From the IMG/VR virus record IMGVR_UViG_3300020390_000003, positions 1-64,000 of that record: a stretch of 64,000 nucleotides of DNA; one strand, 5' to 3'. The stretch comes from a virus. The notes under the pieces were generated by a model. The model was not told the origin of the DNA. It searched no databases and saw only the letters and a list, made by a program, of their open reading frames with translations. The position numbers and the translations under genes are program-made. This document shows positions 5,451 to 57,875 of this stretch, one piece after another. Within the stretch, counting starts at the first letter, position 1. The number at the start of each line of letters is the position of its first letter.

Positions 5451-5506
5451 GTCTAAGACGGGCACCGCTGCGCCCGTTTCGCTCATCAAGAGCTCATCAG
5501 TTAGAC
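5451..5506 (-). ncRNA. Type I hammerhead ribozyme
   Basis: Minus strand: GUCUAA-CUGAUGA-GCUC uugau GAGC-GAA-ACGGGC gcagcggu GCCCGU-C-UUAGAC; full catalytic core, three perfect stems, GUC cleavage triplet. Confidence 0.92.
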
Positions 5507-5511
5507 TATAA

Positions 5512-6036: not shown

Positions 6037-6039
6037 AGT

Positions 6040-6234: not shown

Positions 6235-6263
6235 TTTCCCGAATGAATTAAATTAATATTAGA

Positions 6264-6311
6264 TTAGTTGCACGGGGCGCTATCGCTGCGCCTTCGGTCC
6301 TTCCTCCGTGC
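6264..6311 (-). ncRNA. tRNA top-half mimic, element B
   Basis: GCACGG..GGCGC-AGCGAUA-GCGCC-CCGUGC-AACUAA. Confidence 0.5.
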
Positions 6312-6341
6312 TTGTTGTTTTTATGCCTTCTCGGGCGTTAA

Positions 6342-8832: not shown

Positions 8833-8905
8833 ACTTCGGTAGCTCAGTTGGTAGAGCAGCGGTCTCCAAAACCGTAGGTCGTAGGTTCGAGTCCTTCCCG
8901 TTGTG
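8833..8905 (+). tRNA. trnW: tRNA-Trp(CCA), imperfect stems, no encoded CCA end
   Basis: TAGCTCAGTTGGTAGAGC D-arm, GCGGT-CTCCAAA-ACCGT anticodon arm, GGTTCGAGTCC T-arm. Confidence 0.8.
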
Positions 8906-9042
8906 CATACTTAGAGAGAGCGAAAGCGGATCATTGGCATAGATGCGATGAAGTAAGTAGCGCAGAGAAAAGATACCGGGAATTATGCGCCCGGCATCAC
9001 ATTAAACAATCGGGAAACATAACAACTTTTATTACTTAACAA

Positions 9043-10515
9043 ATGGAAAAACAAACTTTCATTACTACCCTAGGGGCTTTGGACGCCCAATTCAGATTTG
9101 ACGAAACATATTGTGAAAAGGTTTCTGAAGCATTAGGCTATGAAGATGGCAAGATGTATAACAACGGTGTGCTGGTTGAAACCCTTATCAATCTTTTAGC
9201 AAGCGGCGTGGACCACGAGGTTGATCACGAAGATGCAGATGCGCTTATTCGCGAGTATATGTATGAGTGTGATTTTGGCAAGGCTCCCAATGCGCGTATT
9301 AGAAATGCTGAAGATTTGTGGAACATATTCCACGTTGGCGACAAAGTAGCAGAGCAGAAACTAAAATCATCAATAGAAACCATTGGTGATTGGGAAGTGG
9401 CGCGAGTAGGTAAGCCATACTTGGAGCAAGCTAAACTTAGATGCCCGGATTTTAATGCTAATGAGCAAGTGCTTTTGGCCATTATTATCGAGTACCAAGA
9501 CTGGTACAAAAGCTGCAAAGATGCTGATATACCTGGTGATTTTTTAGATTTCATTCCAGAATTGAGTAAGAAATATTTCTTAAGTAAAACTCACAGTGAA
9601 GAAAACCCTTCTCCCTATCCTGCTATTTATGCGGAGTTATCAAATGTGATTGAAAAGCATAAGCATTTGATCGAGAACAAAGCGCCTATGGAGGACGTTG
9701 AGCATTTAGAGGAATTGATATCCCATTATTTTGATGCGGCAAAATCGACTGCTTACGCAGATTATGACAAGATGTGGGAGTTTATTAAGCGTGGTATTAA
9801 TGCTGATGTAGAAGCTATGCCGAAAAAATCTGCAGATGAGATTGCGCAGATGCTAAAGCCAAAATCAAAAACACCGATAGCAGATAGCTTAGATGATAAG
9901 AACCATCTTAAACAGGCTATTGAGGAATTTGAAAAGAAAAATCCACATTTTTTTATAGCTGAAAAATCAGTGAGAGAAAAGCTGTTTGATGCTTTTGAAG
10001 GTGAGACTGTAAGAGTTGTTTGCGATAGAGCTTTCCTAGATAAGATAAATACGTCAGGATTAGGAAAGTTAAAATCTATTGAAAAGTTTGAAACCAAAAC
10101 TAAAATCCACTTCGCCTTATTCAACAAGACGTATCAAGAAGGTGCTTTAGAAGAATTTCCAAGCGTTAAAAAACCTCAATCTGAGTTTAATGGATTTGCT
10201 AAGAAGTTTGAAGGTGATAAGGAAGTGAAATCAGTCGAAGAATATCCTTTAATTGACCTTTCAAACTATCCATTCTTAAAATGCAAAGATCAATCGTATA
10301 AACACGGGGATTACGCGACTATTTTCAAAGATGAAATCGACGGGAAAAAAGTTTTGATTGAGTTCAACCTACACGGTTTTATAGCTTCAGATATTAGCAA
10401 TGCAGTAAGTTTTATGAAAAATGATGTTATGCCTACTGCTTCCAGAGCAGCGCTTAATCACTTTTTACGAAGATCAATAGTACGAATCAAAATCACACCC
10501 AATGAGCAATCCTAA
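9043..10515 (+). CDS. Hypothetical multidomain phage protein
   Basis: 490-aa ORF, no recognised motif. Confidence 0.7.
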   Translation: MEKQTFITTLGALDAQFRFDETYCEKVSEALGYEDGKMYNNGVLVETLINLLASGVDHEVDHEDADALIREYMYECDFGKAPNARIRNAEDLWNIFHVGDKVAEQKLKSSIETIGDWEVARVGKPYLEQAKLRCPDFNANEQVLLAIIIEYQDWYKSCKDADIPGDFLDFIPELSKKYFLSKTHSEENPSPYPAIYAELSNVIEKHKHLIENKAPMEDVEHLEELISHYFDAAKSTAYADYDKMWEFIKRGINADVEAMPKKSADEIAQMLKPKSKTPIADSLDDKNHLKQAIEEFEKKNPHFFIAEKSVREKLFDAFEGETVRVVCDRAFLDKINTSGLGKLKSIEKFETKTKIHFALFNKTYQEGALEEFPSVKKPQSEFNGFAKKFEGDKEVKSVEEYPLIDLSNYPFLKCKDQSYKHGDYATIFKDEIDGKKVLIEFNLHGFIASDISNAVSFMKNDVMPTASRAALNHFLRRSIVRIKITPNEQS

Positions 10516-10775: not shown

Positions 10776-11411
10776 ATGAACACAGAAACAGTAGGTACAG
10801 GAAAAGCAAGTTTTCAAGAATATAGAAGGTCAGCCATAGCTGAAATGAGGCCGGTTACGAAAGAGGATAGAGAAAACTTTAATGGGAACGGTGAGCTTAA
10901 ATTCATATCTGATTTAGGATGGTACACAGTATCTATTTCGGAACAGGATTTGAAAAACGGCTCTCCTAAAATTGGCGATATGATTGCCCGAAACCCTAAA
11001 AACTACCTTGACCAATGGTTAGTATCTGAGCAATATTTCAAAGATAACTTTATTGGTAAAGAAGGTCCTTCTGAAAACCTTTCATTCGGTGCGGCCATCG
11101 AAGCATTAAAGCAAGGTAAGCGCGTACAACGCTCCGGATGGAATGGTAAAGGGCTATTCATTTTTATGCAGGTGCCTAGCGAAGTGCCAATGGAAGTTGT
11201 TCCAAAAATGAGCAGTTTGCCTCAGTCAGTAAAAGACGAATTTGAACGCCGATTTACTTCCGGAGAAAAAAGAGAAGGCGTAGATCCTATCGAAAACAAT
11301 ACCATCAAGTACAAAAATCAGCTTGCGATGGTATATCCTGATAACAAAATTTATGGTTGGGTAGCAAGTCCAAGTGATGTGCTAGAAGAAGATTGGGTAA
11401 TCCTTGATTAA
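10776..11411 (+). CDS. DUF2829 / Tad2-like anti-defence sponge domain fused to an N-terminal domain
   Basis: 'FGAAIEALKQGKRVQRSGWNGKGLFI...WVASPSDVLEEDW'. Confidence 0.8.
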   Translation: MNTETVGTGKASFQEYRRSAIAEMRPVTKEDRENFNGNGELKFISDLGWYTVSISEQDLKNGSPKIGDMIARNPKNYLDQWLVSEQYFKDNFIGKEGPSENLSFGAAIEALKQGKRVQRSGWNGKGLFIFMQVPSEVPMEVVPKMSSLPQSVKDEFERRFTSGEKREGVDPIENNTIKYKNQLAMVYPDNKIYGWVASPSDVLEEDWVILD

Positions 11412-12124
11412 TGCAATGCCTGTATTGTGATACAGCCATTACTTCAGAGGATGAAGCGGTGCGCTTAGGAGAAAGCAATTTGCGCTTATGCGTACCGTGT
11501 AACAACAGATTTCAAATTATGAAAAAAGCAAAAGACACCATTACAGGAAATTTACCGGCCAAAGATCGCCTTGACAATTATGTGAAGCACGAGAATGGCG
11601 CCGTATTCCTATTAACCGAAAATACACGCGAGAAAGGCAAGGTCTTTTTAGTAAGCAGCAAGTACAAATTTCATAGCGTAAGCCTTCAAAGCATCAAGCA
11701 AGGACTTGTTGACGGCAAATGGCGCTATGTGAATGAGCACGAGGTTCGCAAGTTTGATGATGAGTATATTGAAAACGTAAATGCTATTGTACAAAAGGTA
11801 CTCAAACACGTGATCGCAGCCGAATTATTAATGTCGGTTGATGCAGATTTAGACGCGCAGGAAATAGGTGATCGTTATTTTAGAAGCTTGCTTGCGAAAT
11901 CTAATAAGCACGCTGAGCGTATCGCTAACAAGCACGTAGATAATATCTATGAAGCAGACCCCGAAATGTTTAATCACATTATGCGCACGCTAGAACAGCA
12001 GGTGACGTTGATCGCCGGCCTTCAGCTAGAGGATATTCCTTATTTCGCGCAGTACACCAAGAAGTTTTTTGAAGATCCTAAAGCGTTTAGGACTGATGAT
12101 GTAGAATTTAATACCGAAGTGTGA
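11411..12124 (+). CDS. Hypothetical protein with N-terminal zinc finger
   Basis: CxxC...CxxC at the N-terminus. Confidence 0.6.
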   Translation: MQCLYCDTAITSEDEAVRLGESNLRLCVPCNNRFQIMKKAKDTITGNLPAKDRLDNYVKHENGAVFLLTENTREKGKVFLVSSKYKFHSVSLQSIKQGLVDGKWRYVNEHEVRKFDDEYIENVNAIVQKVLKHVIAAELLMSVDADLDAQEIGDRYFRSLLAKSNKHAERIANKHVDNIYEADPEMFNHIMRTLEQQVTLIAGLQLEDIPYFAQYTKKFFEDPKAFRTDDVEFNTEV

Positions 12125-45324: not shown

Positions 45325-45629
45325 AGCGCATTTGTATTAAGATTAGACAATGTAGTTTGGTGAGTCAACAACTCTTTTAAAGAAGCAATGAGCGTGATTT
45401 GTTGTTGTAGGCTATTGACAATTTGAGAAGCAGTTTTCGGCTTAAAACTGCTTTGTTTAGAAAGCACATAATTAACTAGTTGATGATGCGCTTTTAAATG
45501 ATCACTAATATCTGCTTGCTCATAAAATTCAGAAAGCTTGTCATGTAAAACTTGCGAATTGGCTTTAACAAATAATTGATTTGCAATTTGAGAATTGCGT
45601 TTACTGGTTTTCTTTTCTGTGTTTCGCAT
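45321..45629 (-). CDS. Hypothetical protein translationally coupled to Rha gene
   Basis: Start codon lies in an antisense target repeat. Confidence 0.6.
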   Translation of the reverse strand: MRNTEKKTSKRNSQIANQLFVKANSQVLHDKLSEFYEQADISDHLKAHHQLVNYVLSKQSSFKPKTASQIVNSLQQQITLIASLKELLTHQTTLSNLNTNAL

Positions 45630-45800
45630 TAGAAAAAAATTAAATTAAACAATAAGAGCGTAGCTCCCTCTAAGTTGCGAAACACACCAGTTGACGAGCA
45701 AATGGAATCGAGAGAGACTACGCCTGTATTGTAGCCTAAATATTCGGTAAAAAAAAGATTGAAATACTCAATCAACTGTATGTTTCGCATTTCAAACATA
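45617..45800 (-). ncRNA. c4-like antisense RNA / leader switch
   Basis: TGCGAAACA sense copies at the transcript 5' end and at the start codon; complementary copy in a hairpin loop; TAnnTTTG promoter at 45793-45800. Confidence 0.6.
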
Positions 45801-45890
45801 CAAAAGAAATTTTAATCTACACCATTAGTACTTAAAAAAAATAAATGTTACAGTATTGTTCAATCAAATAACGGTGTATTATAGTAAAGG

Positions 45891-46063
45891 TTAGATAGGT
45901 GGATTTACCTGAGCTAAGAATTGATAGCCTTTGGTTCAACCTCATTTTTAAAATGCACAAGAAACTTTTTCACACAAGCTGTGTAAGTCTTACGGGTGCT
46001 TGGTGAGTTGTATTTTAACTCACAATCTCTCGAATACTTAGTTAACCATTTTCGAGTATTCAT
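45891..46063 (-). pseudogene. Integron-type tyrosine integrase with large internal deletion
   Basis: N-terminal SAM-like 'LKYNSPSTRKTYTACVKKFLVHF' joined out of frame to a C-terminal remnant 'QFLAQVNPPI*'. Confidence 0.7.
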
Positions 46064-46099
46064 AATTGACGTGTTAATTTTATTGGTGTTAGTGATGGG

Positions 46100-46126
46100 T
46101 TTGCATATATAGTAGTTGTGTGCAAT
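46100..46126 (+). other. attI-like primary recombination site
   Basis: CATATATAGTA-GTTGTGTGC about 50 bp upstream of the integrase start, resembling an attC right arm; first GTT of the array. Confidence 0.6.
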
Positions 46127-46316
46127 AAAAAATTGATGCAGCCCACTTAACCGATATTCCGTTCGGGTTGCTTTCACACCTCGGTGGGAAGTATTAACGA
46201 GCTTTGGACACTCTTACTTTTTAAGGTTTCTAATACATTAGTGGTAATCCCGCTGGTTTCTGCATCAATTCAATTTTTTACTGTTCACTTCGCCATACAA
46301 CAACGTATAACAAAAA

Positions 46317-46463
46317 TTACTTACTATTCGTTTCTTGATGAAGTTTGTTTATCATATAGCTTATCAGCCCACTAAAGTTCTCAACTCCAAGCACCAAAAC
46401 AGATAAGTCATTACCCTTTTGGTGCATTTCGTCAGTTATTGTAATTGTTACTTTTTTAGTCAT
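46317..46463 (-). CDS. 48-aa ribbon-helix-helix-like protein (not in ORF track)
   Basis: MTKKVTITITDEMHQKGNDLSVLVLGVENFSGLISYMINKLHQETNSK; alternating beta strand then helices. Confidence 0.55.
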   Translation of the reverse strand: MTKKVTITITDEMHQKGNDLSVLVLGVENFSGLISYMINKLHQETNSK

Positions 46464-46464
46464 T

Positions 46465-46644
46465 TTAAAAAATTAGTTTAGCGTTTAATATTCCTTTTTC
46501 AGTAAAGTCAACTTTTTTTAATTCCTTATAATCACATTCAGGATAAAAAGAAAGTAAATCTTTTGCGCATTCTCTATTGCTAATAGTCCAACCTATTTGT
46601 TTAGTTATTAAATCAACTAATTTTTTAAAATTTTGTAAGTACAT
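46465..46644 (-). CDS. Small hypothetical protein inside the attC1 loop
   Basis: MYLQNF start; TAnnTTTG promoter at 46672-46679 with TTTG at 46699-46702. Confidence 0.55.
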   Translation of the reverse strand: MYLQNFKKLVDLITKQIGWTISNRECAKDLLSFYPECDYKELKKVDFTEKGILNAKLIF

Positions 46645-46794
46645 AATATCTGTTTTTAATTGTTTACTTGTCAAAGATAGTAAATACTTTATACATACCA
46701 AACAAATACAATAATTTTTTTCACGTAACTTTTGTTATACAATTCCGTTAGCCTACAATAGCCCATCGAGGGCACGCAATCAAACCAGTAAAAA

Positions 46795-46962
46795 TCAATT
46801 CTCCACCAAAGGTTTTAAGCAAAGTCTGGCTTCATTTGCATACTGCTTTAACGTATCAATTTGATAGTCTGTAATTGGTTTCTTTTGGTTGAGAATACGC
46901 CACATATAGGTATTGTAACAATGTGCATTATGTATTCTTTGTTCTTTCTCTGAAGCATCCAT
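46795..46962 (-). CDS. Cassette 2 gene, hypothetical protein
   Basis: MDASEKEQ...; enclosed by 16-bp inverted repeat 46745-46760 / 46995-47010. Confidence 0.55.
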   Translation of the reverse strand: MDASEKEQRIHNAHCYNTYMWRILNQKKPITDYQIDTLKQYANEARLCLKPLVEN

Positions 46963-47001
46963 AGTGATGATTTTTAATAGTTTAAAAGATTGCTTATTGT
47001 A

Positions 47002-47178
47002 GGCTAACGGGCGGTGTATGGCCACGCATCGGCAATCGTCGGTTAATATTTGTTCAATTCATTTATAATTCGATTGGCTACAGATAGCTAACAAAATGTA
47101 AAGCTTATAGATGCGTAGCTCAATCGGCTTTTACGTGTATGCTACGCATCCACAAGCCTTACACACCGCCCGTTGTGC
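47002..47178 (+). repeat. attC-like site 2 (nested, double-headed)
   Basis: Outer AACGGGCGGTGT/ACACCGCCCGTT; inner GCTAAC-aaaa-TGTAA..GATGCGTAGC/GCTACGCATC..TTACA. Confidence 0.8.
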
Positions 47179-47184
47179 ATAATA

Positions 47185-47604
47185 CTACAACTCGATTTGT
47201 AAATTGATATTACCAGACAAAACGCTTTCAATATCAATGGTGTATCTTAATTCGTGCCATATTGCAACCTTGTAGTTATTCCATTCCATATACTTTTTTT
47301 CTTTGTACTTGTCTTTAACCTCTTTAAGCCTTTCTCTTTTTGCTTTTGGTAGTTTAGAAGTGCAGAAGTATGCTAATCTCAAATCAACCTTATCCAAGGT
47401 TAAAGAATCTCGCCAATGAGATAGTTGTGCGTTTACATCACCTAATTCAAATTCTAATCCATCGGCAAAAAGTATATTATCTTTGTACTTTTTTAAAGTG
47501 GTTTGTTCAGCTATTTCCGTTATTTGCTTTTCAATAGCTTTAACAGTTGCGTTTGCACTAAAGCGTTTTTGTAGTGCTTCTATTAAAAATTTTTGTAATT
47601 CCAT
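47185..47604 (-). CDS. Cassette 3 gene, hypothetical protein
   Basis: 139-aa ORF exactly filling the space between GTTGTGCATAATAC and GTACTATGCACAAC. Confidence 0.75.
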   Translation of the reverse strand: MELQKFLIEALQKRFSANATVKAIEKQITEIAEQTTLKKYKDNILFADGLEFELGDVNAQLSHWRDSLTLDKVDLRLAYFCTSKLPKAKRERLKEVKDKYKEKKYMEWNNYKVAIWHELRYTIDIESVLSGNINLQIEL

Positions 47605-47614
47605 ACCGTACTAT

Positions 47615-47746
47615 GCACAACACTATATATAATTAATAGCCTGTGTTGTGCTTAATTTAAAGGCTATTAAGTGTTTAATAATTCAGTTTTAATTCGATAG
47701 GCAATCGCTTATTTACGTCTACTAATCATATATTTTAACGTTAGGA
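47615..47746 (+). repeat. attC-like site 3
   Basis: GCACAAC-acta-TATATAATTAATAG ... CTACTAATCATATA-ttttaac-GTTAGGA. Confidence 0.75.
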
Positions 47747-47770
47747 AAAATGTCCTAAAGGCACGTATTG

Positions 47771-47953
47771 CTACGCTTTTAAAATTTGGTCAACCTCATT
47801 GTCCGTTAATTGTCCGGTGTGTTCATAGCCTTGCTTTAACCCATATTCTAAAACCTTTTTAACTTGTAATTTAGTCATAGGCTTACCTTTATGAGTAAAG
47901 GCTTTATAACTTCTGTCTAATTGGGTTAAAGCACCCTCAATATCTGCATTCAT
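47771..47953 (-). CDS. Cassette 4 gene, hypothetical protein
   Basis: 60-aa ORF between attC3 and attC4. Confidence 0.6.
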   Translation of the reverse strand: MNADIEGALTQLDRSYKAFTHKGKPMTKLQVKKVLEYGLKQGYEHTGQLTDNEVDQILKA

Positions 47954-47989
47954 ATTATTAATTTTAAATTCCTTCGCTTGCTCGATTGC

Positions 47990-48160
47990 CTCTAACGGTC
48001 AGGGTATGTCTACACATCGACAATCAATATGTGTATTTGCTATTTAAAGACTTACGCTAAGTCAACTACATCTAACAAAATATATACTCCATAGATGCGT
48101 AGCCAATGCTTCTCCTGTGTAGGCTACGCCTCCACGAAGCATATACCCTGACCGTTAAAC
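47990..48160 (+). repeat. attC-like site 4 (nested, paralogous to site 2)
   Basis: Outer TAACGGTCAGGGTAT/ATACCCTGACCGTTA (15 bp perfect), ends GTTAAAC (GTTRRRY). Confidence 0.8.
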
Positions 48161-48256
48161 CGCCACTAAACTAATCTTTAATTTATACTAGATATAATTA
48201 TAATGCTATTAATTTTCTATTAAATTTGTATTTAGTATAGATTTTGATTATAGAAA

Positions 48257-49780
48257 ATGGCACAGCAAGGTAATTTTGCAGCATTGCAGCGTTTACAGCC
48301 TACTCAGGGCTTATCGCGTGATGTTCAGTATTGGAATAGTGATGCGGCAAGACGCCGAACTGAGAATCGTATTGATGAAAATATTCAGTATCAACGGGAG
48401 CAAGCGCGTAAAAAAGCACAATCAGAACTTTATGATAAATGGGTAAAACCCGGGCAAATGTATGATACGGGTAGTGCGTCTTTAAATGAAGTGCTTGCCC
48501 GTGGATTAAGCCAAGCGCGTGAACAATATTTGCCTAACCTTCAGATTTTAGAAAACCCCAATGCTTCGCAAGAAGAAAAGATCAAAGCACGCCTTCGCTT
48601 AGATAATCTTAATCAACTTCCTGAGCGTTTTAAAACCGTTACAGATAAATACACCGCAGAATGGAATGCCTATCAAGAAGCCAAGCAAAATGGCAATGCG
48701 TATGATCAGCCGGAACTTGATAAAGCATTTCAAGGTGGTTTTAAAAGCTATGAAATTGGCCTTGATGATATGGCTAATCCTGTTATTGCTTTTGTAGATA
48801 AGAATGGGGATGGCCAAAACGATTTGATAGGTGCACAAACCTTTGATCAAATTAGTCAAGGTATGCCGCTTTTTGACTGGCAGAAAAAATACAATATTGA
48901 TACGATGGCAGAAGATGTTGCCAAGCGTATAGGCACCACAGATAAGACCGAAGTAACTAATGGCGGTTTTGGTAGCATTCAAGAAAAATCTGCAAACCTT
49001 GATGGTATTCGCACAGCCGCACAAAAACTGTTTTATGATGCTAATGGTGGCGCTACCGAAGTAGCAAAAAGCGCGCTAAGAGAATCCGGATTGAATTATC
49101 AAAACCCCACTGCACAAGACTTGCTGCAGGTTGAAGATAGTTTTGTCAAACAAGCAATGTCTTATACTGATTATATGCGCAAGGAAACCCTTGATGCTAG
49201 TGGGCAAACATCGCGTATGCGTGAGAATCGACTTGCTAGTGGTGATAATCCTAATGCTGTGATCACCGAGCCGGTAAATCCTTCACAAGAAGTTTGGGGT
49301 GATGCTTATAGTACAATTGCGCCTAATGCAAAAAGTGTAGGTGTAAACGGCGTTAAGTTAAGCGCCATACGTGACGGAGAAAATACCATTACCGATGCCA
49401 ATGTGCAAAACGTGACTTATGATGCCAATGGCAATATGCTTGTAGATGTGGTTTATCAAGACATAAAAAGCTCTACGTATAAAGCGAAAGAAGCAAGCAT
49501 ACTAGAACAGCTCGCACAAGCGCAAAAATCTCAGGACGTATTAGAAGAAGCCGGGAATACCGAAGAAGCTAAAAAATTTGACGATAAGATACAAGGCTAT
49601 AATATGGAATTAAATCGACTTTCTACCGGAGCTCAAAACAAGCGTAAAGTAGTACGCATACCTAAAGAAGATGAAGCAAGTGTTGCACAACAACTAGGCG
49701 GTATTGAAGCGATAAAACAGCGCGTAGGAGTTCAAAATAACACTACCCAAACTAATGATCCACTAGGAATATTTGAATAA
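48257..49780 (+). CDS. Internal virion / ejection protein 2
   Basis: 507 aa, helical, between ejection genes, own late promoter. Confidence 0.65.
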   Translation: MAQQGNFAALQRLQPTQGLSRDVQYWNSDAARRRTENRIDENIQYQREQARKKAQSELYDKWVKPGQMYDTGSASLNEVLARGLSQAREQYLPNLQILENPNASQEEKIKARLRLDNLNQLPERFKTVTDKYTAEWNAYQEAKQNGNAYDQPELDKAFQGGFKSYEIGLDDMANPVIAFVDKNGDGQNDLIGAQTFDQISQGMPLFDWQKKYNIDTMAEDVAKRIGTTDKTEVTNGGFGSIQEKSANLDGIRTAAQKLFYDANGGATEVAKSALRESGLNYQNPTAQDLLQVEDSFVKQAMSYTDYMRKETLDASGQTSRMRENRLASGDNPNAVITEPVNPSQEVWGDAYSTIAPNAKSVGVNGVKLSAIRDGENTITDANVQNVTYDANGNMLVDVVYQDIKSSTYKAKEASILEQLAQAQKSQDVLEEAGNTEEAKKFDDKIQGYNMELNRLSTGAQNKRKVVRIPKEDEASVAQQLGGIEAIKQRVGVQNNTTQTNDPLGIFE

Positions 49781-50837: not shown

Positions 50838-53800
50838 ATGCAAAATCAAAATACAGACCCTGGCAAAAAATTAAGCCCTGCAGATTTTGCGGCTAAAATT
50901 AAAACGAAATATCCTCAATACGCAGATATTGAAGATGGTCAACTTATTGATAAAATCACGGCTAAATATCCTCAATACAAAGAGCAAATAGATTTTAGTG
51001 TAAAAAAAAAAGAACCTTACAAAACTACTGCTACTGCTCCAAAACCTGTATCGGGTTTGGAAACCACGACCCAAGAACCGGCGAAAAAGGATGGTTCATT
51101 GGCTACTACACCACCGGTAGAAATTCAGCAAAATGAAAAGCTTCAAACGCTATTATCAGAATATGATGCCGCGAAGCAACTCACCCCGGAAGATGAGCAA
51201 GAAATAGCACAGACAGTTGAGCAAGAAAGCACTATGAATTTTGGCTTTTTTGACCGTATGAAGCAAGCGTATTCCGTAGCTTCTCAAGCCAATCCTTTTT
51301 TACCTACTTACAATTATCAAGATCCTAATGCAAAACTGCGCCGTAAATCTGCAGAGGCCATCGCGCGGGATCAAGAAATTGATGTAAATGAGGTGAGCCC
51401 AGAGCAAGTAAATGAGCGTGTGATGCAAGAGCGCACCCGTGAATTGGCACAGCAAAAGATCGATAATAAAACCGAAGAATTTATCGAATCGCGCAGCGCA
51501 GAAACGCAGCAGATATTGAATGAACATTTCAATATTAAAAGTGAAAAACTTACCAATCAGTCAAAACGTATTCTTTTAGAGAATGAAGATGCTTATAAGC
51601 AAGTTGAAGCCTTAGACGCGCAATTAGAAAGCATCAAAGCAAATCATAGTAAAGACCAAGAATATACTGAGGAATACTACGCTAATAATCAAAAGTTGGT
51701 AGCACAGCGTAATGCCTTAGTTGATCAAATCATCAAGCGCAATGAAACGCTGAATGAAACGAATGAGGATTTACTTTCAACGCAGAATGAGATCGACTTG
51801 TTTAAGCGTAATTATGGCAAGGTTTATAATATGCTTAGCAAGTTTGGAAATGCAACAGAGGAAATGTCTGCAAACCTTATTGAATTTGGATATCGATTTT
51901 CTACGCTTCCTTTACTTGATAATGTACTTCCGGAAGGCACAGAAACCAGTATTGCTTTTGACGCAATGATGAAGAATATACGTGAAGGTATTGCTGCTGA
52001 AAAGGAAACTCTACGACGGCCAAGAGATTTAAGCAACTTGCAAAGCGCTGAAGATTTTACGGAATGGGCAATGGATCTTGTTGCAGAGCAGACACCTAAC
52101 ACTATTGTTATGGCTTCAACCGGCGGCAGTAGTTCGCTTGCAGTTTTAGGAGCAAGTGCCGGAGGTGCCAAGTTTAATGAAATGACCGAGGAAGAAAAGA
52201 ATAGCCTAGGCGCCGTTAACTATACCGAAGCACAAAAATATTTATCGGCAATGGGTGCATTTGTATTTGAGGCCGGTAGTGAGCGTATTTCATTAGGTCA
52301 GATCAGGCAAGCCAAGCGTGTATTTCAAACCATTGGTAGAGATCAACTTAAAGAATCTGCTTCAAAATATCTTAAAAGGCAGGTTCCAGAATATATACAG
52401 CGTGTTACAGAAGAAGGAGGAACAGAAGCAATTGCGCAATTCTCGCAAAATTTAGCTGATAAATATTATTTAGGTAAGGATATTGATTTAATGCAAGGCG
52501 TTGGGGAATCGTTTATAAGTGGTGCGTTTATGAGTGGTGTAATTTATCAAGCACCTGGTATTTTTAGCGGTATTGCAAAGTCGTTTTCTACTAAAGACAA
52601 CAATCAGAAAATAGGTGAAAATCTTGCTAAGATCAAGCAGTTTAATGAGCAGTTGAACTCAGAATTGTCACCGGAAGTTGCTACTAAAATCGCAGCCAAG
52701 CGCGATGCGTTAATCCTGCAAAACAAGAATATCCTTGACAAGTCGATTGCAGATATAGACGAACTCACTTATGAGCAAAAACAGGAAATCCTTGATATTG
52801 AAAATCAAAAGTACAAACTACGCCAAGAGACACAGCGCTTAAACGAAGAATCAAATTTAAGTGATGATGTACGCAAGCAATTGATTGAAGAAAATGCTGC
52901 TAAAATCGAGAAACTAGATGAGCAACGTCAAGGTATTTTATTAGAGCGTGAGCAAAACTTTTTGAGCGTACTTCCTGCGGAAGAACAACAAGCCTTAAAA
53001 GATCAAGCACAACGTGAGTTGATGGCCGAGTATGAAGCCCAAGGCGTTGAAGAATACGAGATCAGCGATCAAGAAATTACCGCGCGCGCAGTAAGCCTAT
53101 TTGAAAATCAAAATACAGAAACCAATGCCGAAACCCAAGAGACAACCACAGAAGAAACGCAGCCAGAGGTATTACCTGCGCAAGATCAAAAAAGTAAAAA
53201 AATAAAAGTATACCACGGCACATCAGGCGACTTTGATAGGTTTGATTTCAACAGTGAATCTAAAGGATTTGGGCAGCAAGATTTAGGAAAAGGTGTTTAC
53301 TTCACAGAGTCTAAAGAACGTGCTGACGGCTACCGAAAGAATGCAAATATTAATAATAATCTTCCTGCTGAATCAGGTAGAGTAATGGAGGTTTCTATCA
53401 CGGTAAACAACCCTATTGATATTGCCTCAGAAGAATATGGAAACTTAGAAGAAACTTATTCTGATAAAGGTGAACTTAGTCAAGCTATTCAAGATGCAGG
53501 ATATGATGGTATTGTTTACACAGTAAACGGCAAGAAAAATTATGTTGTTTTTAATGAAAATCAAATAGAATATTCTAATGAAAGTACACCGGCACAAGAT
53601 CCTGCAATTGATGAAGATGTTCGACCTGAGCCTTCACAAGACAATAACACCACAGAAAACCAAGACGTACAACCCACCGTTGAGTCTGAGCCAAGTACAA
53701 CAGAAGCTCAAACCACTACCAAACGCGTCAACCCAAAAGGTGTAAAAGGGGAATTTGATGTAGAACTTGACACTGATGGTGAAGTTACCCGAGTGATCAG

Positions 53801-56800
53801 CGTAAAAGACGGTAGAGAAATTCCAAAATTCACCGAGCGTACTAATAAGCGTACTGGCAAAAAAACAATGGTTCGAAATGCAAACTACTCGCGTATCGCT
53901 AATGAGGCCATAGGCCAAAAGACCGAAAACCAATTGCGCGAAGAAGCAAAAGCAAAGACCAATGTCGCAATTGACAATTACACACCTACCAATGCGTATG
54001 AAGCCGCTTTAGATTACTTTGCTCGTGGCGGTAACATAAGCCTTGCTTCCGCGACTAAAGAAACAGGATATACCCAAGTAGAAGTTAAATGGGCAGCAGG
54101 TTTTAATAAAGACACAGACTTACCAAGCATAGAACGTGCTGCAGAAGGTATTGTTGCAGAGTCTGATCTTGACCTTGATGTAAATGAAGTACGTAATGAA
54201 ATCATTGCTATACTTCAAGCCAAGCAAAGTGTTTCTGAGGTACAAAATGAAATTGTAGCTTTACAAGAAGAAGCAAATGCACGTCAAAATGAAGAAGAAC
54301 TTTATCAATATTTAGGCACGCTATCAGAGGCACAACTTACTGCATATGAATCACAAGTAGCAGAAGATACCTATTTAGAACAACTCACTTACGAAGAACA
54401 AATCGAATATTATGAAGGACAATACGGCACCCAAGACCAGCGCATTGAAGCAGAAATTGAAGGAAACAGGCAAACTAAGCCAGAATCAGAGAGCAGCCCT
54501 GCAAGCATTCAAGAACGTTCAAGACCGCAAGGAGAAGAAGAATCCGGGCAGTCAGACGATGCCTTCCTAAAATGGCTTAATAAACAAAGTCAGGATCTTG
54601 ATGATTTTAGCAAAGGCACTTTAGGAATCAACCTTCCGGTGGCCGTTGCGCAAGGAGCCATTAAAATTGTACGCACCGCATACACCGCCGGTAAAAGTGC
54701 AAGCCAAGCCATTAAAGAAGCGCTTGATTATATCAAAGCTACTGATTGGTACAAAGGTTTATCTAAAAAAGAACAGCGCGAGGTAAATGCTGATCTTGTA
54801 AAACGTGCCGTTGTTCAAGAAAATATGAGCGATGAGCAAACCTTTGACTATATAGAAAAGGAATTTGAAGAAGCTGATAAAGCTTTGGAGAATAAACAAC
54901 CTGCTAAGAAAAAGCGCCAATCCCTCATTCGTAAATTCATTCAAAAAGTAAGTGATCGCCAATTCATTTCTAAAAAGTTGGTTGATGAAGTGGGTGCCCA
55001 GCAGACTAAAGATGCAATGATCAATAGCCACGGGGCTTCCGGAAAGGCTAAACGCATCTTTGATAAGGCATTTTATCAGATATATTCAGACAACCTTTAC
55101 TACAATCAACAAGGTTTACAAGGTTATAAGTACACTTGGAAACCTATGAGCAATGCAGATCGTGCAATGCTTGATAAAATCATTCAGCTTAAACGCTTTA
55201 TTGCTATTGATAAGAACCGTACAGAAAAAGGACTTCCACCGGTAACACACCCGGGATTTATTAACGGTAAAATGGCGCAAAAATATTTGAACCACGTTAA
55301 GGTAAAACTAGGTGATGAGAAATTTGCAGATATTGAGAAGCGCGCAGCTATTTACTTCAAAACTTACCACACTTTACTTGAAGAAATGCGTAAGAACGGT
55401 TTGATTAGCGATGCTGTTTTTGAAAGTCTTGACGGTCTTGATTATCAACCGCGATTATTCTTGCAGCATATTACTGATTTTGAAGGCAATGTTTCATTAG
55501 GAGCAGCGCAAAGCGAGAAAAGCGATACCGGCGGTTTATCACAAGACCAGATCAAAGCGCTGGGAGAAGGAAGCAGCGGCGTTTTGGTACGTAATTCTGA
55601 ATGGTTGCTTGCAACTTCTATTGTAGCAAGACAACGCGCAATGGCAATGAATACCGTAAACAAGGTATTTATGACTAAGGAATTTCCTGCTGCAAAAAAA
55701 CGCTATCAAGAATTAAAAAAGGATATCAAAAACCGCAAGAAGTGGAGCCGCGAAGATGAGCGCTTTTACACGTATTTTACGGAGCTCAATAGTAAGATCA
55801 AGGATAATCCTATTATCAAGCAGAAAAAGAATACGGAGCAAGAGGTAATTGACGGGATGGAGCCTGAATACATCTATACGCGTAAATATGACAAGACACC
55901 GGCCAATTTTAAAAAGGCGTATTATTATGAAAACGGTGTGCGTCACGAGTTCTTTATTGAAGAAAACTTACATGATGCGTGGTTTGACAATATACCTGGA
56001 TTTTTAAATGCTAAAGCTAAAGAGTTTCTTGGATATGCTATGGGCGCTTCATTACTTAAAGGTATAGCGACCGGTAATAACCCGGCATTTGCTTTAGTCA
56101 ACACACCGCGTGACTACATTTTCAACGTAGTTTTCAGCGATCAATACAGTTCGATCGTTCCAAAAGCGATGTATCAAGTGGCTAAAGATACGTTTAAAGC
56201 AATACGCGAAATCAAGCGTTCTAATGGCAGTTTTGGTGCAGATGGCAGTTTGCTAGATAAATACATTTATTATGGCGGTGATATGGCGTTTTTAAGCACA
56301 CAAGGCCGCTTAAAGCAAAATACCAGACTTGCTAAGACTATTGACAAGCTACTTACGCCACGGGTGAAAAACATCGCCGGAACCATTTTTAAAGCGGTTA
56401 CGCTAAGAAAGCTTTCAGAATATAGTGAGGTGATGTTTAGAATGGCGTTGTTTCAACGTACTATTAAGAACGAATTAGATGCGCGCGGACTCAAATCTAT
56501 GAATGCGGTTAAAACCCAAGCAGAAAAAGACCAAATCTATATGCGTGCGGTTGCTGAGGCACGTAGCTTGCTTGACTTTAATCAAGGCGGTAGTTATACT
56601 AAAGATGCCGAAGCTTTTATTCCGTATATCAATACGGCGGTACAAGGTACGCGTGTTGCTGCAGATGCCTTTCAGAAAAACCCTGATAAAATATTCTTTA
56701 AAGTAATGCAATCAGCGGTAATGTTAAGCGGTGCATCTGTATTAGGTTCGCTTGCTTTGATTAAAGCTAACAAAGATGATGAGGAAGAAAAATCTGCTTA

Positions 56801-57875
56801 CGAGATTTGGTTAGAAGCAATGGAAGGTGTTAGTCAATACCAACGCATACAGTATTTTAATATTGTAGATGGTACCAAAGATGAGAATGGGGAATATCGC
56901 GTATGGAAAATTGCAAAAAACCAGCAGCTTGCACCGGTGCTCAACATAGCTGATAATGTGTACACGCAATGGGTTTCTGATATCGCCGGTGTAAAACGTA
57001 AGGATAGCAATGTGAATTATGCCGAAGCCTGGACCGCTATTCAAAACAACATTATTCCTTTTGATCTTGAAAAACCGATCACGGGGAATTTAACTAAGAC
57101 GCCTGTTATTAAAGCTGGATTTACTTATGGTACTGGTCACGATTTTTACCGAGATCAACCTTTAACCTTTGATCAAAATCAAGATAATCCGGTAATGGAA
57201 GGCGCTCAGGATAAAAATGTAGACGATTTTTATAAAGAGATTGGCCGCGAATACCGTTTATCTCCGGCACGCTTAAAAGGCGCTGTGGAATCTTTGATCA
57301 CTACACCACGTACCAATCCTTTTATTGGCGTGCTATATGCCGGTGCAGATGGTATTGCTTCAGAAGATAAGACCTTGAAGGATATGGCCGGCAAAGTAGG
57401 AAAAGATATGTTGAGTTCGTTTGATAAACGCGTGATAAGCCATACCAGCGATTTTAATAGACAAATAAACCGACTGCGGCCGGTAGAAGATGATCTTAAA
57501 GAGATTAAAACAGTGAATGATTATCGTGAGGTGGATTTAGAAGAATTGACCAAGGACCTTTACAACAACAAAGTAAGCATACCTGTTTTCTTGGAGAAAT
57601 TACAGGAAATGAAACCTACTGAGAAGGAAGCCAAAAAGATTGAAAGCAAGCTAAAAAGCTTATTCAAGTACAAAGATGTAGATCGCTATGTAATAGGACT
57701 TGCTTTTGAGTCTGATCGTGAAGCACGCGCGCTTAAAATCGCTAGGTACTACGGCAATGTATTTGACGGAAGCCCTGAGAATGATCGCGTATTCTCGCAA
57801 ATGGTAGATATGAATGTGCTAGATCCCGAGACGATTGTAGAGTACCAAAAATTGGTTAACAAAATGAACCAATAA
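50838..57875 (+). CDS. Giant ejection / polyvalent protein with ART-like domain and LPD38-like C-terminus
   Basis: 'VYHGT..DFDRF...GKGVYFT...AGYDGI...YVVFNENQI'; 'DFNQGG......FIPYINTAVQG'. Confidence 0.8.
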   Translation: MQNQNTDPGKKLSPADFAAKIKTKYPQYADIEDGQLIDKITAKYPQYKEQIDFSVKKKEPYKTTATAPKPVSGLETTTQEPAKKDGSLATTPPVEIQQNEKLQTLLSEYDAAKQLTPEDEQEIAQTVEQESTMNFGFFDRMKQAYSVASQANPFLPTYNYQDPNAKLRRKSAEAIARDQEIDVNEVSPEQVNERVMQERTRELAQQKIDNKTEEFIESRSAETQQILNEHFNIKSEKLTNQSKRILLENEDAYKQVEALDAQLESIKANHSKDQEYTEEYYANNQKLVAQRNALVDQIIKRNETLNETNEDLLSTQNEIDLFKRNYGKVYNMLSKFGNATEEMSANLIEFGYRFSTLPLLDNVLPEGTETSIAFDAMMKNIREGIAAEKETLRRPRDLSNLQSAEDFTEWAMDLVAEQTPNTIVMASTGGSSSLAVLGASAGGAKFNEMTEEEKNSLGAVNYTEAQKYLSAMGAFVFEAGSERISLGQIRQAKRVFQTIGRDQLKESASKYLKRQVPEYIQRVTEEGGTEAIAQFSQNLADKYYLGKDIDLMQGVGESFISGAFMSGVIYQAPGIFSGIAKSFSTKDNNQKIGENLAKIKQFNEQLNSELSPEVATKIAAKRDALILQNKNILDKSIADIDELTYEQKQEILDIENQKYKLRQETQRLNEESNLSDDVRKQLIEENAAKIEKLDEQRQGILLEREQNFLSVLPAEEQQALKDQAQRELMAEYEAQGVEEYEISDQEITARAVSLFENQNTETNAETQETTTEETQPEVLPAQDQKSKKIKVYHGTSGDFDRFDFNSESKGFGQQDLGKGVYFTESKERADGYRKNANINNNLPAESGRVMEVSITVNNPIDIASEEYGNLEETYSDKGELSQAIQDAGYDGIVYTVNGKKNYVVFNENQIEYSNESTPAQDPAIDEDVRPEPSQDNNTTENQDVQPTVESEPSTTEAQTTTKRVNPKGVKGEFDVELDTDGEVTRVISVKDGREIPKFTERTNKRTGKKTMVRNANYSRIANEAIGQKTENQLREEAKAKTNVAIDNYTPTNAYEAALDYFARGGNISLASATKETGYTQVEVKWAAGFNKDTDLPSIERAAEGIVAESDLDLDVNEVRNEIIAILQAKQSVSEVQNEIVALQEEANARQNEEELYQYLGTLSEAQLTAYESQVAEDTYLEQLTYEEQIEYYEGQYGTQDQRIEAEIEGNRQTKPESESSPASIQERSRPQGEEESGQSDDAFLKWLNKQSQDLDDFSKGTLGINLPVAVAQGAIKIVRTAYTAGKSASQAIKEALDYIKATDWYKGLSKKEQREVNADLVKRAVVQENMSDEQTFDYIEKEFEEADKALENKQPAKKKRQSLIRKFIQKVSDRQFISKKLVDEVGAQQTKDAMINSHGASGKAKRIFDKAFYQIYSDNLYYNQQGLQGYKYTWKPMSNADRAMLDKIIQLKRFIAIDKNRTEKGLPPVTHPGFINGKMAQKYLNHVKVKLGDEKFADIEKRAAIYFKTYHTLLEEMRKNGLISDAVFESLDGLDYQPRLFLQHITDFEGNVSLGAAQSEKSDTGGLSQDQIKALGEGSSGVLVRNSEWLLATSIVARQRAMAMNTVNKVFMTKEFPAAKKRYQELKKDIKNRKKWSREDERFYTYFTELNSKIKDNPIIKQKKNTEQEVIDGMEPEYIYTRKYDKTPANFKKAYYYENGVRHEFFIEENLHDAWFDNIPGFLNAKAKEFLGYAMGASLLKGIATGNNPAFALVNTPRDYIFNVVFSDQYSSIVPKAMYQVAKDTFKAIREIKRSNGSFGADGSLLDKYIYYGGDMAFLSTQGRLKQNTRLAKTIDKLLTPRVKNIAGTIFKAVTLRKLSEYSEVMFRMALFQRTIKNELDARGLKSMNAVKTQAEKDQIYMRAVAEARSLLDFNQGGSYTKDAEAFIPYINTAVQGTRVAADAFQKNPDKIFFKVMQSAVMLSGASVLGSLALIKANKDDEEEKSAYEIWLEAMEGVSQYQRIQYFNIVDGTKDENGEYRVWKIAKNQQLAPVLNIADNVYTQWVSDIAGVKRKDSNVNYAEAWTAIQNNIIPFDLEKPITGNLTKTPVIKAGFTYGTGHDFYRDQPLTFDQNQDNPVMEGAQDKNVDDFYKEIGREYRLSPARLKGAVESLITTPRTNPFIGVLYAGADGIASEDKTLKDMAGKVGKDMLSSFDKRVISHTSDFNRQINRLRPVEDDLKEIKTVNDYREVDLEELTKDLYNNKVSIPVFLEKLQEMKPTEKEAKKIESKLKSLFKYKDVDRYVIGLAFESDREARALKIARYYGNVFDGSPENDRVFSQMVDMNVLDPETIVEYQKLVNKMNQ

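What the first reader, a model, noticed from the sequence alone, without database searches (positions are those of the whole stretch)
47002..48160. Two nested 'double-headed' attC-like elements with covarying outer arms
Seen: sites 2 and 4 are paralogous, sharing CATCGRCAATC, CTAACAAAAT, ATAGATGCGTAGC and GCTACGCMTCCAC. Each has a normal inner site (from 47087 and about 48071) plus an extra upstream segment of about 80 bp. That segment begins with a perfect inverted copy of the distal right arm: AACGGGCGGTGT/ACACCGCCCGTT in site 2 and TAACGGTCAGGGTAT/ATACCCTGACCGTTA in site 4. The outer sequences differ between the two elements yet stay complementary within each. Inference: the right arm has two mutually exclusive partners. 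This could give a conformational switch, an invertible symmetric element, or a footprint of how new cassettes are made.
Basis: partly seen in the sequence, partly recalled or inferred. Interest (0 to 1): 0.75.

Follow-up and report, generated by a model that had tools for sequence, protein, structure and literature searches.

The report
Two-state hairpin site of phage gene cassettes
The two elements are members of a conserved, roughly 165-base folded DNA site that marks the borders of small mobile gene cassettes in marine flavobacterial phages and their hosts, and it carries a built-in pair of alternative folds not seen in ordinary integron sites.

Summary
Observation confirmed. Both elements (47006-47174, 47994-48156; functional sense = minus strand) belong to a family of 29 matches (28 distinct) in 21 stretches of phage, prophage and Flavobacteriaceae DNA.

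Best reading (0.55): an attC-like folded-strand recombination site of an integron-like cassette system. The likely recombinase is a small Xer-type tyrosine recombinase that lacks the IntI insertion.
- The outer GTT is the real cassette border: 20 of 28 rows have a matching inverted arm downstream, against 0 of 28 for the inner GTT.
- Identical element-plus-cassette units are duplicated or dispersed, with edges at AAC.

The outer and inner helices are nested, not exclusive. A different, covarying two-state design exists: b pairs with b' or b'', and X' pairs with X1 or X2. Its function is unknown. No inversion was seen.

The scan had already noted this array in this genome, not on other DNA. New variant of a known kind.

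The parts
47006..47174 (-). Read on the minus strand: AAC, a, b, X1, loop with b'', X', b', yTTTGTT(inner), AT-rich spacer, X2, CATAC, a', GTT(outer).
   Evidence: Covariance model R1 gives 163.5 bits.
47163..47174 (-). W2 outer helix P1, 5' strand in functional sense (AAC + a). Pairs with 47006-47017.
   Evidence: Perfect 12-bp inverted repeat. P1 is paired in 99.4% of cells across 28 sequences.
47006..47017 (-). W2 outer helix P1, 3' strand (a' + outer GTT). The outer GTT is the plus-strand AAC at 47006-47008. This is the cassette border.
   Evidence: The 14-mer from the outer GTT has its exact reverse complement 220 nt into the downstream flank scanned.
47097..47163 (-). W2 hairpin P2/P3. 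Arms are 47097-47119 and 47141-47163. X1/X' is the GATGCGTAGC/GCTACGCATC core. The loop is 47120-47140 and contains b'' (47126-47131).
   Evidence: (I9).
47090..47092 (-). W2 inner GTT (plus-strand AAC of CTAACAAAAT). It is the second 'head'. It is present in every family member but has no matching distal arm.
   Evidence: Alignment viewed; inner 14-mer best match has 4 mismatches.
47021..47030 (-). W2 X2, a second copy of the hairpin 5' arm and the alternative partner of X'.
   Evidence: X':X2 duplex -18.2 kcal/mol.
47994..48156 (-). It is the element farthest from the recombinase remnant and abuts the divergent intergenic region 48157-48256.
   Evidence: R1 gives 162.2 bits. ORF map.
48143..48156 (-). 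W4 P1 5' strand (AAC + a). Pairs with 47994-48007 (a' + outer GTT).
   Evidence: Perfect 14-bp inverted repeat.
48081..48145 (-). W4 hairpin P2/P3. Arms are 48081-48104 and 48122-48145. The loop contains b'' (48105-48113). The inner GTT is the plus-strand AAC at 48074-48076. X2 is at 48009-48018.
   Evidence: (I17). The DNA minimum-energy fold already uses the alternative pairing.
46745..47010 (-). Cassette following W2. Arm alpha (GTTAGCCTACAAT...) is at 46988-47010. The leader and a 58-codon ORF follow (ATG 46972 to stop 46795). The matching arm alpha' + AAC is at 46745-46767.
   Evidence: I8: 23 nt, 87%; 14-mer, 0 mismatches; ends conserved in L005, ORF interior not.
47185..47604 (-). 139-codon ORF between the degenerate site 3 and W2. 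No family match.
47771..47953 (-). 60-codon ORF following W4. No family match.
45914..46177 (-). 87-codon remnant of a small Xer-type recombinase (N-terminal SAM-like domain only). It lies downstream of the array on the same strand.
   Evidence: Phage_int_SAM_4, E 6.9e-4, below cut-off. (40% identity over 40 aa to the 265-aa recombinase of L097, E 1e-5).

Best explanation
Proposed identity. The two elements are folded-strand recombination sites, functional analogues of integron attC sites. They belong to an integron-like cassette system of marine Flavobacteriaceae and their temperate phages.

Anatomy (shown). The functional strand is the window's minus strand. It reads: alpha'(previous cassette), AAC, a, b, X1, loop, X', b', TTT-GTT(inner), spacer of about 55 nt, X2, CATAC, a', GTT(outer), alpha(next cassette).
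- The strand folds into one long quasi-continuous helix (a:a', b:b', X1:X').
- An 85-nt bulge sits on the 3' arm.

Mobile unit (shown by comparison). The unit is 'element + cassette': a...a'-GTT-alpha...ORF...alpha'-AAC. Exchange happens at or next to AAC.

Mechanism (inferred).
- A small Xer-type tyrosine recombinase is encoded downstream on the same strand. It is decayed to a remnant in this phage.
- It is proposed to recognise the fold rather than the arm sequences, and to cut at AAC.
- It would then excise, insert and duplicate units, as IntI does with attC bottom strands.

Relation of the parts.
- The inner site is the ancestral, simple form of the site.
- In this family its 5-6 nt spacer has grown into arm a.
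- The appended segment supplies a', a second GTT that now serves as the cassette border, and X2.

Two-state core (shown by covariation; function inferred). The interior can adopt two mutually exclusive folds: A = b:b' + X1:X', and B = b:b'' + X':X2. I take this to gate either recombination competence or read-through transcription. Which of the two is not decided.
For: Structure.
- 29 model matches (28 distinct) in 21 sources.
- P1 is paired in 99.4% of cells, P2 in 92.9% and P3 in 97.4%.
- 26 of 32 pairs change on both sides, and 0 of 500 shuffles reach the observed values.
- Slid controls pair only 32-42%.

Strand.
- P2 carries 56 G.U cells and 0 A.C cells.
- The minus-sense strand folds better in 27 of 28 sequences.

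Cassette grammar.
- The 14-mer starting at the outer GTT has its reverse complement, ending in AAC, within about 90-410 nt downstream.
- This holds at no more than 1 mismatch in 20 of 28 rows, including one duplicate pair.
- For the inner GTT it holds in 0 of 28 at no more than 2 mismatches. Reversed-needle controls give 0 and 2.

Mobility.
- A 390-bp unit (AAC...AACG) occurs twice with 0 mismatches inside one provirus array.
- At least 10 near-identical units are dispersed over 8 contigs of one Flavobacteriaceae genome, and at least 9 occur in another. Their flanks diverge at AAC.
- One copy splits a CTnDOT-type integrase gene: Arm-DNA-bind_5 + SAM_5 on one side, the catalytic C-terminus on the other.

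Recombinase.
- A gene of 265-289 codons lies downstream on the same strand within 8 kb. The records are G159, G156, G160, G004:C82, G006:C13, G001:C159 and L128, weakly L134, and as a remnant the window.
- Its best solved relative is archaeal XerA (4A8E, E 1e-31).
- Against IntI4 (2A3V), 44 residues face 87, so the IntI insertion is absent.

From the recombinase side.
- In 24 viral loci with homologues, GTT...AAC palindromic module pairs number 183 in 175.6 kb upstream.
- They number 14 in 176.5 kb downstream.

Precedent. IntegronFinder-type attC clusters were reported in Polaribacter phage P12002L, and one site was recombined by IntI1 (Qi et al. 2023, PMC9892861; abstract, section 3.4 and search passages read).
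Against: - No recombination was observed directly. All evidence is comparative.
- The recombinase is not within 10 kb in G157 (12 kb away), G158 (71% complete), G002, G003, G057 and Tenacibaculum phage JQ.
- This phage keeps only an 87-codon remnant.
- The specific model R1 hit only 3 of 75 loci carrying homologous recombinases. The link to this particular element family therefore rests on about 9 records.
- P1 has no bulged bases, the element is longer than known attC sites, and the recombinase lacks the domain that reads attC's extrahelical bases.
- In phages the cassette ORFs run in the same sense as the folding strand, which is the reverse of classical cassettes.
- G.U-rich pairing, a T-rich tail after the hairpin and a two-state design would fit an RNA element equally well.
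- Conserved repeats can create mosaic borders by homologous recombination alone.
Confidence: 0.55

Rival explanations
1. A cis-acting RNA. The hairpin b-X1...X'-b' followed by yUUUGUU is an intrinsic terminator or insulator between cassettes. The alternative fold (b:b'' early, X':X2 after read-through) is an antiterminated state, giving factor-dependent attenuation of transcription towards the next cassette and the recombinase gene. The AAC/GTT arms would then merely be the borders of the module that carries it. This reading can coexist with the recombination-site reading.
For: - The folding strand is the sense strand of the cassettes in all phage arrays and of the recombinase gene everywhere.
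- P2 has 56 G.U cells against 0 A.C cells.
- Two mutually exclusive folds are each supported by cognate-specific complementarity. X':X2 is -14.7 (cognate) against -8.8 kcal/mol (non-cognate). b:b'' is -8.1 against -4.5 (non-cognate) and -4.7 (shuffled loops).
- With RNA parameters fold A is favoured by 5 kcal/mol on average, close enough to switch.
- The tail after b' is T-rich in most members (alignment viewed).
- Each element is followed within 35-50 nt by a conserved leader and a start codon.
Against: - The simple terminator scan found none of these hairpins. The loops are 17-21 nt and the T run is short and interrupted.
- The strictly conserved part of the tail is GTT, not the T run.
- In G006 all copies are antisense to the flanking ORFs.
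- No Rfam family matched, even at E up to 10.
- An RNA role does not explain the perfect Watson-Crick P1, the matched cassette arms, or dispersal with edges at AAC.
- No expression data could be laid. The RNA runs hold 0.07 of the sampled words or less, and only as contigs.
Confidence: 0.25
2. Passive recombination hot spots. Like the PeSL cassettes of T4-type phages, these would be conserved intergenic regulatory repeats that shuffle neighbouring genes by homologous recombination. No dedicated recombinase and no folded intermediate would be involved.
For: - Near-identical elements sit next to unrelated genes. W4 and L009 are 98.3% identical over 179 nt, and their flanks diverge.
- Cassette ends are conserved while ORF interiors differ (joints in run X9).
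- Each element sits in front of a leader and a start codon.
Against: - Homologous recombination does not require or maintain compensatory changes in arms 150 nt apart, nor matched inverted arms around every cassette.
- It does not explain insertion into unrelated chromosomal sites with edges exactly at AAC.
- It does not explain the 13-fold excess of palindromic modules upstream over downstream of one recombinase family.
Confidence: 0.1
3. A miniature inverted-repeat transposon (MITE) moved by a transposase that recognises its terminal inverted repeats.
For: - It has terminal inverted repeats of 12-15 bp.
- It is non-coding and about 165 nt long.
- It is multi-copy and dispersed in two bacterial genomes.
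Against: - The inverted repeats differ between copies except for AAC/GTT, so no transposase could read them.
- The dispersed unit is not the element alone but the element plus a second module.
- No direct target duplication beyond AAC is seen.
- No transposase is linked. No reverse transcriptase is present in the record.
Confidence: 0.05

Closest known systems
Integron attC sites, including attC clusters without integrase (CALIN) reported in phages such as Polaribacter phage P12002L (Qi et al. 2023, PMC9892861)
   Same: - Imperfect palindromes bounded by ...AAC and GTT....
- Arm sequences are free to vary while pairing is kept.
- One strand folds better than the other.
- Sites alternate with short, mostly unannotated ORFs in arrays next to the 5' end of a tyrosine recombinase gene. 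The folding strand is that gene's sense strand.
- Each cassette's first bases are complementary to the start of its own site.
- Unit borders lie at the AAC/GTT core.
   Different: - Length is 163-250 nt, against a recalled 57-141 nt for attC.
- The outer helix is perfect, without bulged bases.
- There are two GTT heads for one AAC.
- An 85-nt bulge carries a second copy of a hairpin arm, and the interior has two alternative folds.
- The linked recombinase is Xer-like and lacks the IntI insertion.
- In phages the ORFs run in the same sense as the folding strand.
- The P12002-type sequence that matches this window (47596-47696) is site 3, not these elements. Model R1 found nothing in the P12002S locus.
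pdif modules of Acinetobacter plasmids (genes flanked by inversely oriented XerC/XerD sites); recalled, with abstracts of PMC7399989 and PMC9771954 seen in a search listing
   Same: - Modules are bounded by inversely oriented sites.
- Neighbouring modules share a site.
- Xer-family recombinases are implicated.
- The cargo is small accessory genes.
   Different: - pdif arms are conserved protein-binding sequences on duplex DNA.
- Here the arms are module-specific and covary, which points to strand folding.
- Non-coding structured modules alternate with coding ones.
CTX-phage attP(+), a folded single-strand site used by XerCD (recalled)
   Same: - A hairpin of about 150 nt in one strand creates the substrate of a Xer-type recombinase.
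- The reaction is strand-specific.
   Different: - It is a single site for whole-phage integration at dif, not an array of cassette borders.
- Its arms mimic dif rather than varying freely.
PeSL regulatory cassettes of T4-type phages (recalled)
   Same: - Repeated intergenic promoter/stem-loop units between small accessory genes in a plastic region.
- They are associated with gene shuffling.
   Different: - PeSLs are about 50 nt.
- They have no long-range covarying arms, no linked recombinase and no AAC/GTT cores.

Membership tests
Integron attC site | Inverse core RYYYAAC at one end and core GTTRRRY at the other, in inverted orientation (consensus recalled; G|TTRRRY also quoted in PMC9892861 section 3.4) | tested here: met
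   AAC and both GTTs are found in almost every one of the 29 aligned matches. L008 has AAT/ATT at the outer core and L097 is shifted by one base. The flanks fit the consensus loosely, for example GCACAAC, GTTAGCC, GTTAGAG, GTTGTGG.
Integron attC site | Second inverted pair (L boxes) with extrahelical bases and an unpaired central spacer that set strand polarity (recalled) | tested here: not met
   The outer helix is 99.4% Watson-Crick or wobble paired, with no bulged bases. Asymmetry comes instead from an 85-nt bulge on the 3' arm and from G.U pairs in P2. The inner site, taken alone, does have an unequal spacer (9-12 nt against 3-4 nt).
Integron attC site | Length about 57-141 nt (recalled) | tested here: not met
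   Elements are 163-177 nt, with variants of 245-249 nt.
Integron attC site | Recombined as a folded bottom strand by an integron integrase | not testable with these tools
   Only comparative traces are available: duplicated and dispersed units with edges at AAC.
Integron (platform with IntI) | Tyrosine recombinase with the IntI-specific insertion in the catalytic domain | tested here: not met
   TIGR02249 positions 180-238 are unmatched and scores are below the cut-off. Against 2A3V, 44 residues face 87. The best family is NF040815 (XerA-like): 225 bits against a cut-off of 220 for the G006 protein, and 167 bits for L097.
Integron (platform with IntI) | Cassette array adjacent to the 5' end of the recombinase gene, with the folding strand equal to the recombinase sense strand | tested here: met
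   Met in G159, G156, G160, G004:C82, G006:C13, G001:C159, L128, the window (remnant) and weakly L134. Palindromic modules number 183 upstream and 14 downstream in 24 loci.
pdif / Xer modules | Conserved 11-6-11 XerC/XerD binding sites read on duplex DNA | tested here: not met
   Arms next to AAC/GTT differ from module to module and covary within a module.
MITE | Terminal inverted repeats conserved between copies, plus target-site duplication | tested here: not met
   The arms differ between copies apart from AAC/GTT. The dispersed unit is two modules long and shows no duplication beyond AAC.
Retron msr/msd | Adjacent reverse transcriptase | tested here: not met
   PF00078 gives no match in the 72-kb record.
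Any Rfam family | Match to a curated covariance model | tested here: not met
   There is no match in 45500-48700 at E up to 10, except a chance DUF2815 hit of 19 bits elsewhere in that stretch.
Intrinsic terminator / attenuator RNA | G+C-rich hairpin immediately followed by a U run; alternative pairing that precludes it | tested here: inconclusive
   Alternative pairings are present and covary. The consensus terminator scan does not call the hairpin. The tail is T-rich but short.

The most novel reading that the evidence does not exclude
The element is a nucleic-acid switch built into a recombination site. Two mutually exclusive folds are each kept by covariation: b:b' + X1:X', or b:b'' + X':X2. 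They would decide whether a cassette border is competent for exchange, or is read through. The system is a so far undescribed integron-like platform of Flavobacteriia and their phages. It runs on a compact Xer-type recombinase without the IntI domain, and the hypertrophied bulge replaces attC's extrahelical bases as the polarity cue.
Probability: 0.3. Interest if true: 0.85.

Novelty: new variant of a known kind. Interest (0 to 1): 0.7.

Why it matters
Integrons are the textbook case of recombination that reads DNA shape rather than sequence. So far they are tied to one recombinase lineage carrying a special domain.

Here a compact Xer-type enzyme appears linked to cassette arrays in marine phages and their Flavobacteriaceae hosts. 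One site family within those arrays has evolved a much larger architecture with two heads and two alternative folds.

If the link is confirmed, three things follow:
- It widens the set of enzymes known to run cassette systems.
- It gives phages a route for swapping small accessory genes.
- It offers a natural, compact example of a bistable folded DNA or RNA that can be dissected with simple mutants, because every helix has a covarying partner.

Tried and rejected
Readings rejected
- Retron-like ncRNA (outer a1/a2-type stem plus long hairpin): no reverse transcriptase in the record.
- Known RNA family: none.
- Hairpin promoters of an N4-type virion RNA polymerase: the 2345-aa protein carries only an ART-PolyVal domain.
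- REP/BIME-type genome-wide repeats: host genomes hold 1-5 copies, except two genomes with at least 9-10.
- A compact H-type pseudoknot that would let b:b'' and X1:X' coexist. I judged it sterically unlikely from loop lengths (0-3 and 3-4 nt). This is my own reasoning, not computed.

Checks that gave nothing
- Sigma-70 promoter scan of 45800-48400: 10 sites against 11.2 expected, so no signal.
- A conserved TTGACT-like box after the inner GTT was seen by eye only and was not tested.
- Inversion test. Contigs of runs X5, X6, X7 and X9 laid on 45600-48500 showed no strand-changing joints. Contigs drop rare variants, so this neither supports nor excludes inversion.
- The skips of 176-196 nt in X9 over the 58-codon ORF are 'between: not known'. 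I read them as replacement of the ORF, but that is unproven.
- A single-protein search for recombinase relatives in viral contigs found only the source contig. It was repeated with a 5-protein alignment.
- The G044:C21 'integrase fragment' next to an element was first counted as a linked recombinase. I dropped it once it proved to be a gene split by the insertion.

Limits of the literature check
- Three searches found only Qi et al. 2023 linking attC to flavobacterial phages.
- The passages of Smyshlyaev et al. 2021 (PMC8138268) returned by a term search did not mention this system.
Full report
**What is there**

The window is the first 64 kb of a 72,457-base IMG/VR virus record.
- It carries a Bacteroidetes-type phage integrase at 904-2190.
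- Short stretches match Polaribacter and Tenacibaculum phages.
- Between 45.9 and 48.2 kb a run of small minus-strand ORFs without family matches is interrupted by structured intergenic elements.
- The two elements of the finding lie at 47006-47174 and 47994-48156.
- Both fold far better than shuffled sequence: z = -5.7 and -7.8 as DNA.

**Homologues and anatomy**

Pattern scans of viral and genome collections gave a 12-sequence seed and a covariance model R1. R1 recovered 29 matches (28 distinct) in 21 sources. These include:
- the cultured Tenacibaculum phage JQ (121 bits);
- proviruses;
- Flavobacteriaceae genomes. In a sample of 151 genomes of the family, 7 had a match.

Read on the strand that is minus in the window, the plan is: AAC, a (9-12 nt), b (about 10 nt), X1 (GATGCGTAGC in most), loop of 17-21 nt, X', b', yTTT-GTT, AT-rich spacer of about 55 nt, X2, CATAC, a', GTT.
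- About 35-50 nt further on lie a conserved leader and the next start codon.
- The three nested helices a:a' (P1), b:b' (P2) and X1:X' (P3) are paired in 99.4, 92.9 and 97.4% of cells.
- 26 of 32 pairs change on both sides. No shuffle of 500 reaches the observed values, and slid controls pair only 32-42%.
- P2 holds 56 G.U cells and no A.C cell, and this strand has the lower folding energy in 27 of 28 sequences. So one particular strand is under selection to fold.

**Which head is the border**

I took the 14 bases beginning at each GTT and searched the next 3 kb for their reverse complement.
- Outer GTT: found within roughly 90-410 nt, ending in AAC, with at most 1 mismatch in 20 of 28 rows (one duplicate pair included). 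Two further rows had 2 mismatches, two had 3, and four had 4 or more. W4 is among the last group. One row had too little flank.
- Inner GTT: no row had fewer than 3 mismatches, the same as reversed-needle controls.

Every cassette is thus framed by GTT-alpha ... alpha'-AAC, and every element by AAC-a ... a'-GTT. In the window the 58-codon ORF is framed by 46988-47010 and 46745-46767 (I8).

The inner GTT is conserved but is not a module border.

**The inner site is the standard site**

Homologues of the linked recombinase in 24 other viral loci have 183 GTT...AAC palindromic pairs (both strands counted) in 175.6 kb upstream. Downstream they have 14 in 176.5 kb.

In three of those arrays I looked at the gaps between modules. 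In most of the nine stretches viewed they hold simple sites: AAC, 5-6 unpaired bases (GGTTGG, GGCATC...), a long hairpin beginning GTRTA and ending TAYAC, YTT, GTT.

R1 itself hits only 3 of the 75 searched loci. The double-headed form is therefore one narrow family inside a wider system. In this family the short spacer has become arm a, and an appended segment provides its complement and a second GTT.

**Mobility**
- In provirus G159 a 390-bp unit (AAC, element, GTT, cassette, AACG) occurs twice without a single mismatch. Its flanks differ from 3 bases before the first AAC and directly after AACG.
- In genome G044 at least 10 near-identical units of about 330 bp lie on 8 contigs.
- In G006 at least 9 units of about 275 bp occur.
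- In both genomes the unit is element plus a short second module, and homology ends at the AAC.
- One G044 copy splits an integrase gene.
- W4 and a provirus copy (L009) are 98.3% identical over 179 nt, but upstream they diverge exactly at AAC.

**Recombinase**

A gene of 265-289 codons lies downstream of the elements on the same strand in these records:
- G159: six strong matches and one weak one within 4.3 kb, the nearest about 0.8 kb from the gene.
- G156, G160, G004:C82, G006:C13, G001:C159 and L128 (about 280 nt away).
- L134, weakly.

The window keeps an 87-codon N-terminal remnant at 45914-46177.

No such gene lies within 10 kb in G157, G158, G002, G003, G057 or phage JQ.

The protein is a simple SAM_4 + catalytic-domain recombinase.
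- It is closest to archaeal XerA (4A8E).
- The catalytic motifs are visible in the alignment.
- It lacks about 43 residues where IntI4 has its special insertion.
- It scores below the integron-integrase cut-off.

The geometry matches a classical integron: the array lies 5' of the gene, and the folding strand is the gene's sense strand. In G006 the flanking ORFs are also antisense to that strand, as in classical cassettes. In the phages they are sense.

**A two-state core**

It does not: P1 and P2/P3 are nested. Two other parts do have alternative partners.

X' and its two partners:
- X2 is complementary to X' in 85.8% of cells, and 7 of 10 pairs change on both sides.
- Cognate X':X2 duplexes average -14.7 kcal/mol against -8.8 for non-cognate pairs.
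- In divergent members X2 follows X' even where X1 does not. In G044, X' reads ...GCGCTCT and X2 reads AGAGCG..., while X1 keeps GGATGC.

b and its two partners:
- The 'loop' contains b'', a second complement of b.
- Cognate duplexes average -8.1 kcal/mol against -4.5 (non-cognate) and -4.7 (shuffled loops).
- In one subfamily b:b'' is stronger than b:b'.

Fold A (b:b' + X1:X') and fold B (b:b'' + X':X2) are nearly isoenergetic as DNA: means of -31.1 and -33.1 kcal/mol over 22 elements. As RNA, fold A is favoured by 5 kcal/mol. The DNA minimum-energy fold of W4 already uses fold B.

Four helices with covariation in two exclusive sets are the signature of a switch. I cannot tell what it senses or controls.

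**Weighing**
- The ends of the element (AAC, a/a', outer GTT, matched cassette arms, dispersal, recombinase linkage) are best explained by structure-specific site-specific recombination (0.55).
- The interior could serve that reaction, through strand choice or competence.
- It could instead be an RNA-level insulator or attenuator riding in the same module (0.25, not exclusive).
- Passive homologous shuffling (0.10) and a MITE (0.05) explain much less.
- No inversion was seen (contigs only).

**Novelty**
- attC clusters in a Polaribacter phage are in print (PMC9892861; abstract, section 3.4 and search passages read).
- The scan's earlier notes on this genome already call the region an integron-like array.
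- Three literature searches found no description of the double-headed architecture, its two-state core, or the link to a Xer-type recombinase. Supplementary tables could not be opened.

Noticed in passing
window 4893-4958 (-): Pistol self-cleaving ribozyme. It scores 55.5 bits against a gathering score of 34.5, over the full model.
   Followed up: no
window 8833-8906 (+): tRNA-Trp (CCA), found by both ARAGORN and Rfam.
   Followed up: no
window 50838-57875 (+): A 2345-aa protein whose only Pfam match is an ADP-ribosyltransferase of polyvalent proteins, at residues 784-911. It may be an injected multi-domain protein.
   Followed up: no
window 46744-46792, 46972-47010; L005 5228-5276: Cassette ends are far better conserved than the ORF they frame. 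A 49-nt 3' end (TTTTACTGGTTTG..., small hairpin, alpha'-AAC) is 100% identical between two phages, while the ORF between gives no nucleotide match. The same 3' motif ends most cassettes of provirus G159. In run X9, contigs join the two ends across a different interior.
   Followed up: partly
window 47605-47770 (site 3): A degenerate or rearranged site. It holds a 9-bp AAC...GTT minimal hairpin (GCACAACAC...GTGTTGTGC). It also holds a piece resembling W2's spacer (47680-47702 against 47056-47078, 87%, D8). A 100-nt stretch matches Polaribacter phage P12002S at 79%.
   Followed up: partly
L098 (G044:C21) 4772-6321 (-): A 330-bp element-plus-module unit is inserted inside a CTnDOT-type integrase gene, after a GAAC in the coding sequence.
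   Followed up: partly
L084/L085/L086 (G006:C13): The copies are G+C-rich (0.61) in an A+T-rich genome, and the AT-rich spacer is replaced by a G+C-rich one. All are antisense to the neighbouring ORFs, with the AAC end 12-25 nt from their start codons.
   Followed up: partly
L109 (G159) 9683-9931 and 11229-11473 of the record: Two variant elements whose hairpin loop is expanded to about 97 nt. They use a different X1/X'/X2 triplet (AAGGCGTAT) from the canonical copies in the same array.
   Followed up: partly
run X9 on window 46958-47151 and 47637-47733: Summed contig depth of 215-305 over the element and over site 3, against 0-25 on most neighbouring bins. The run is a 2025 aquatic metagenome from a different study. 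This suggests many related sites from several genomes in that sample.
   Followed up: no
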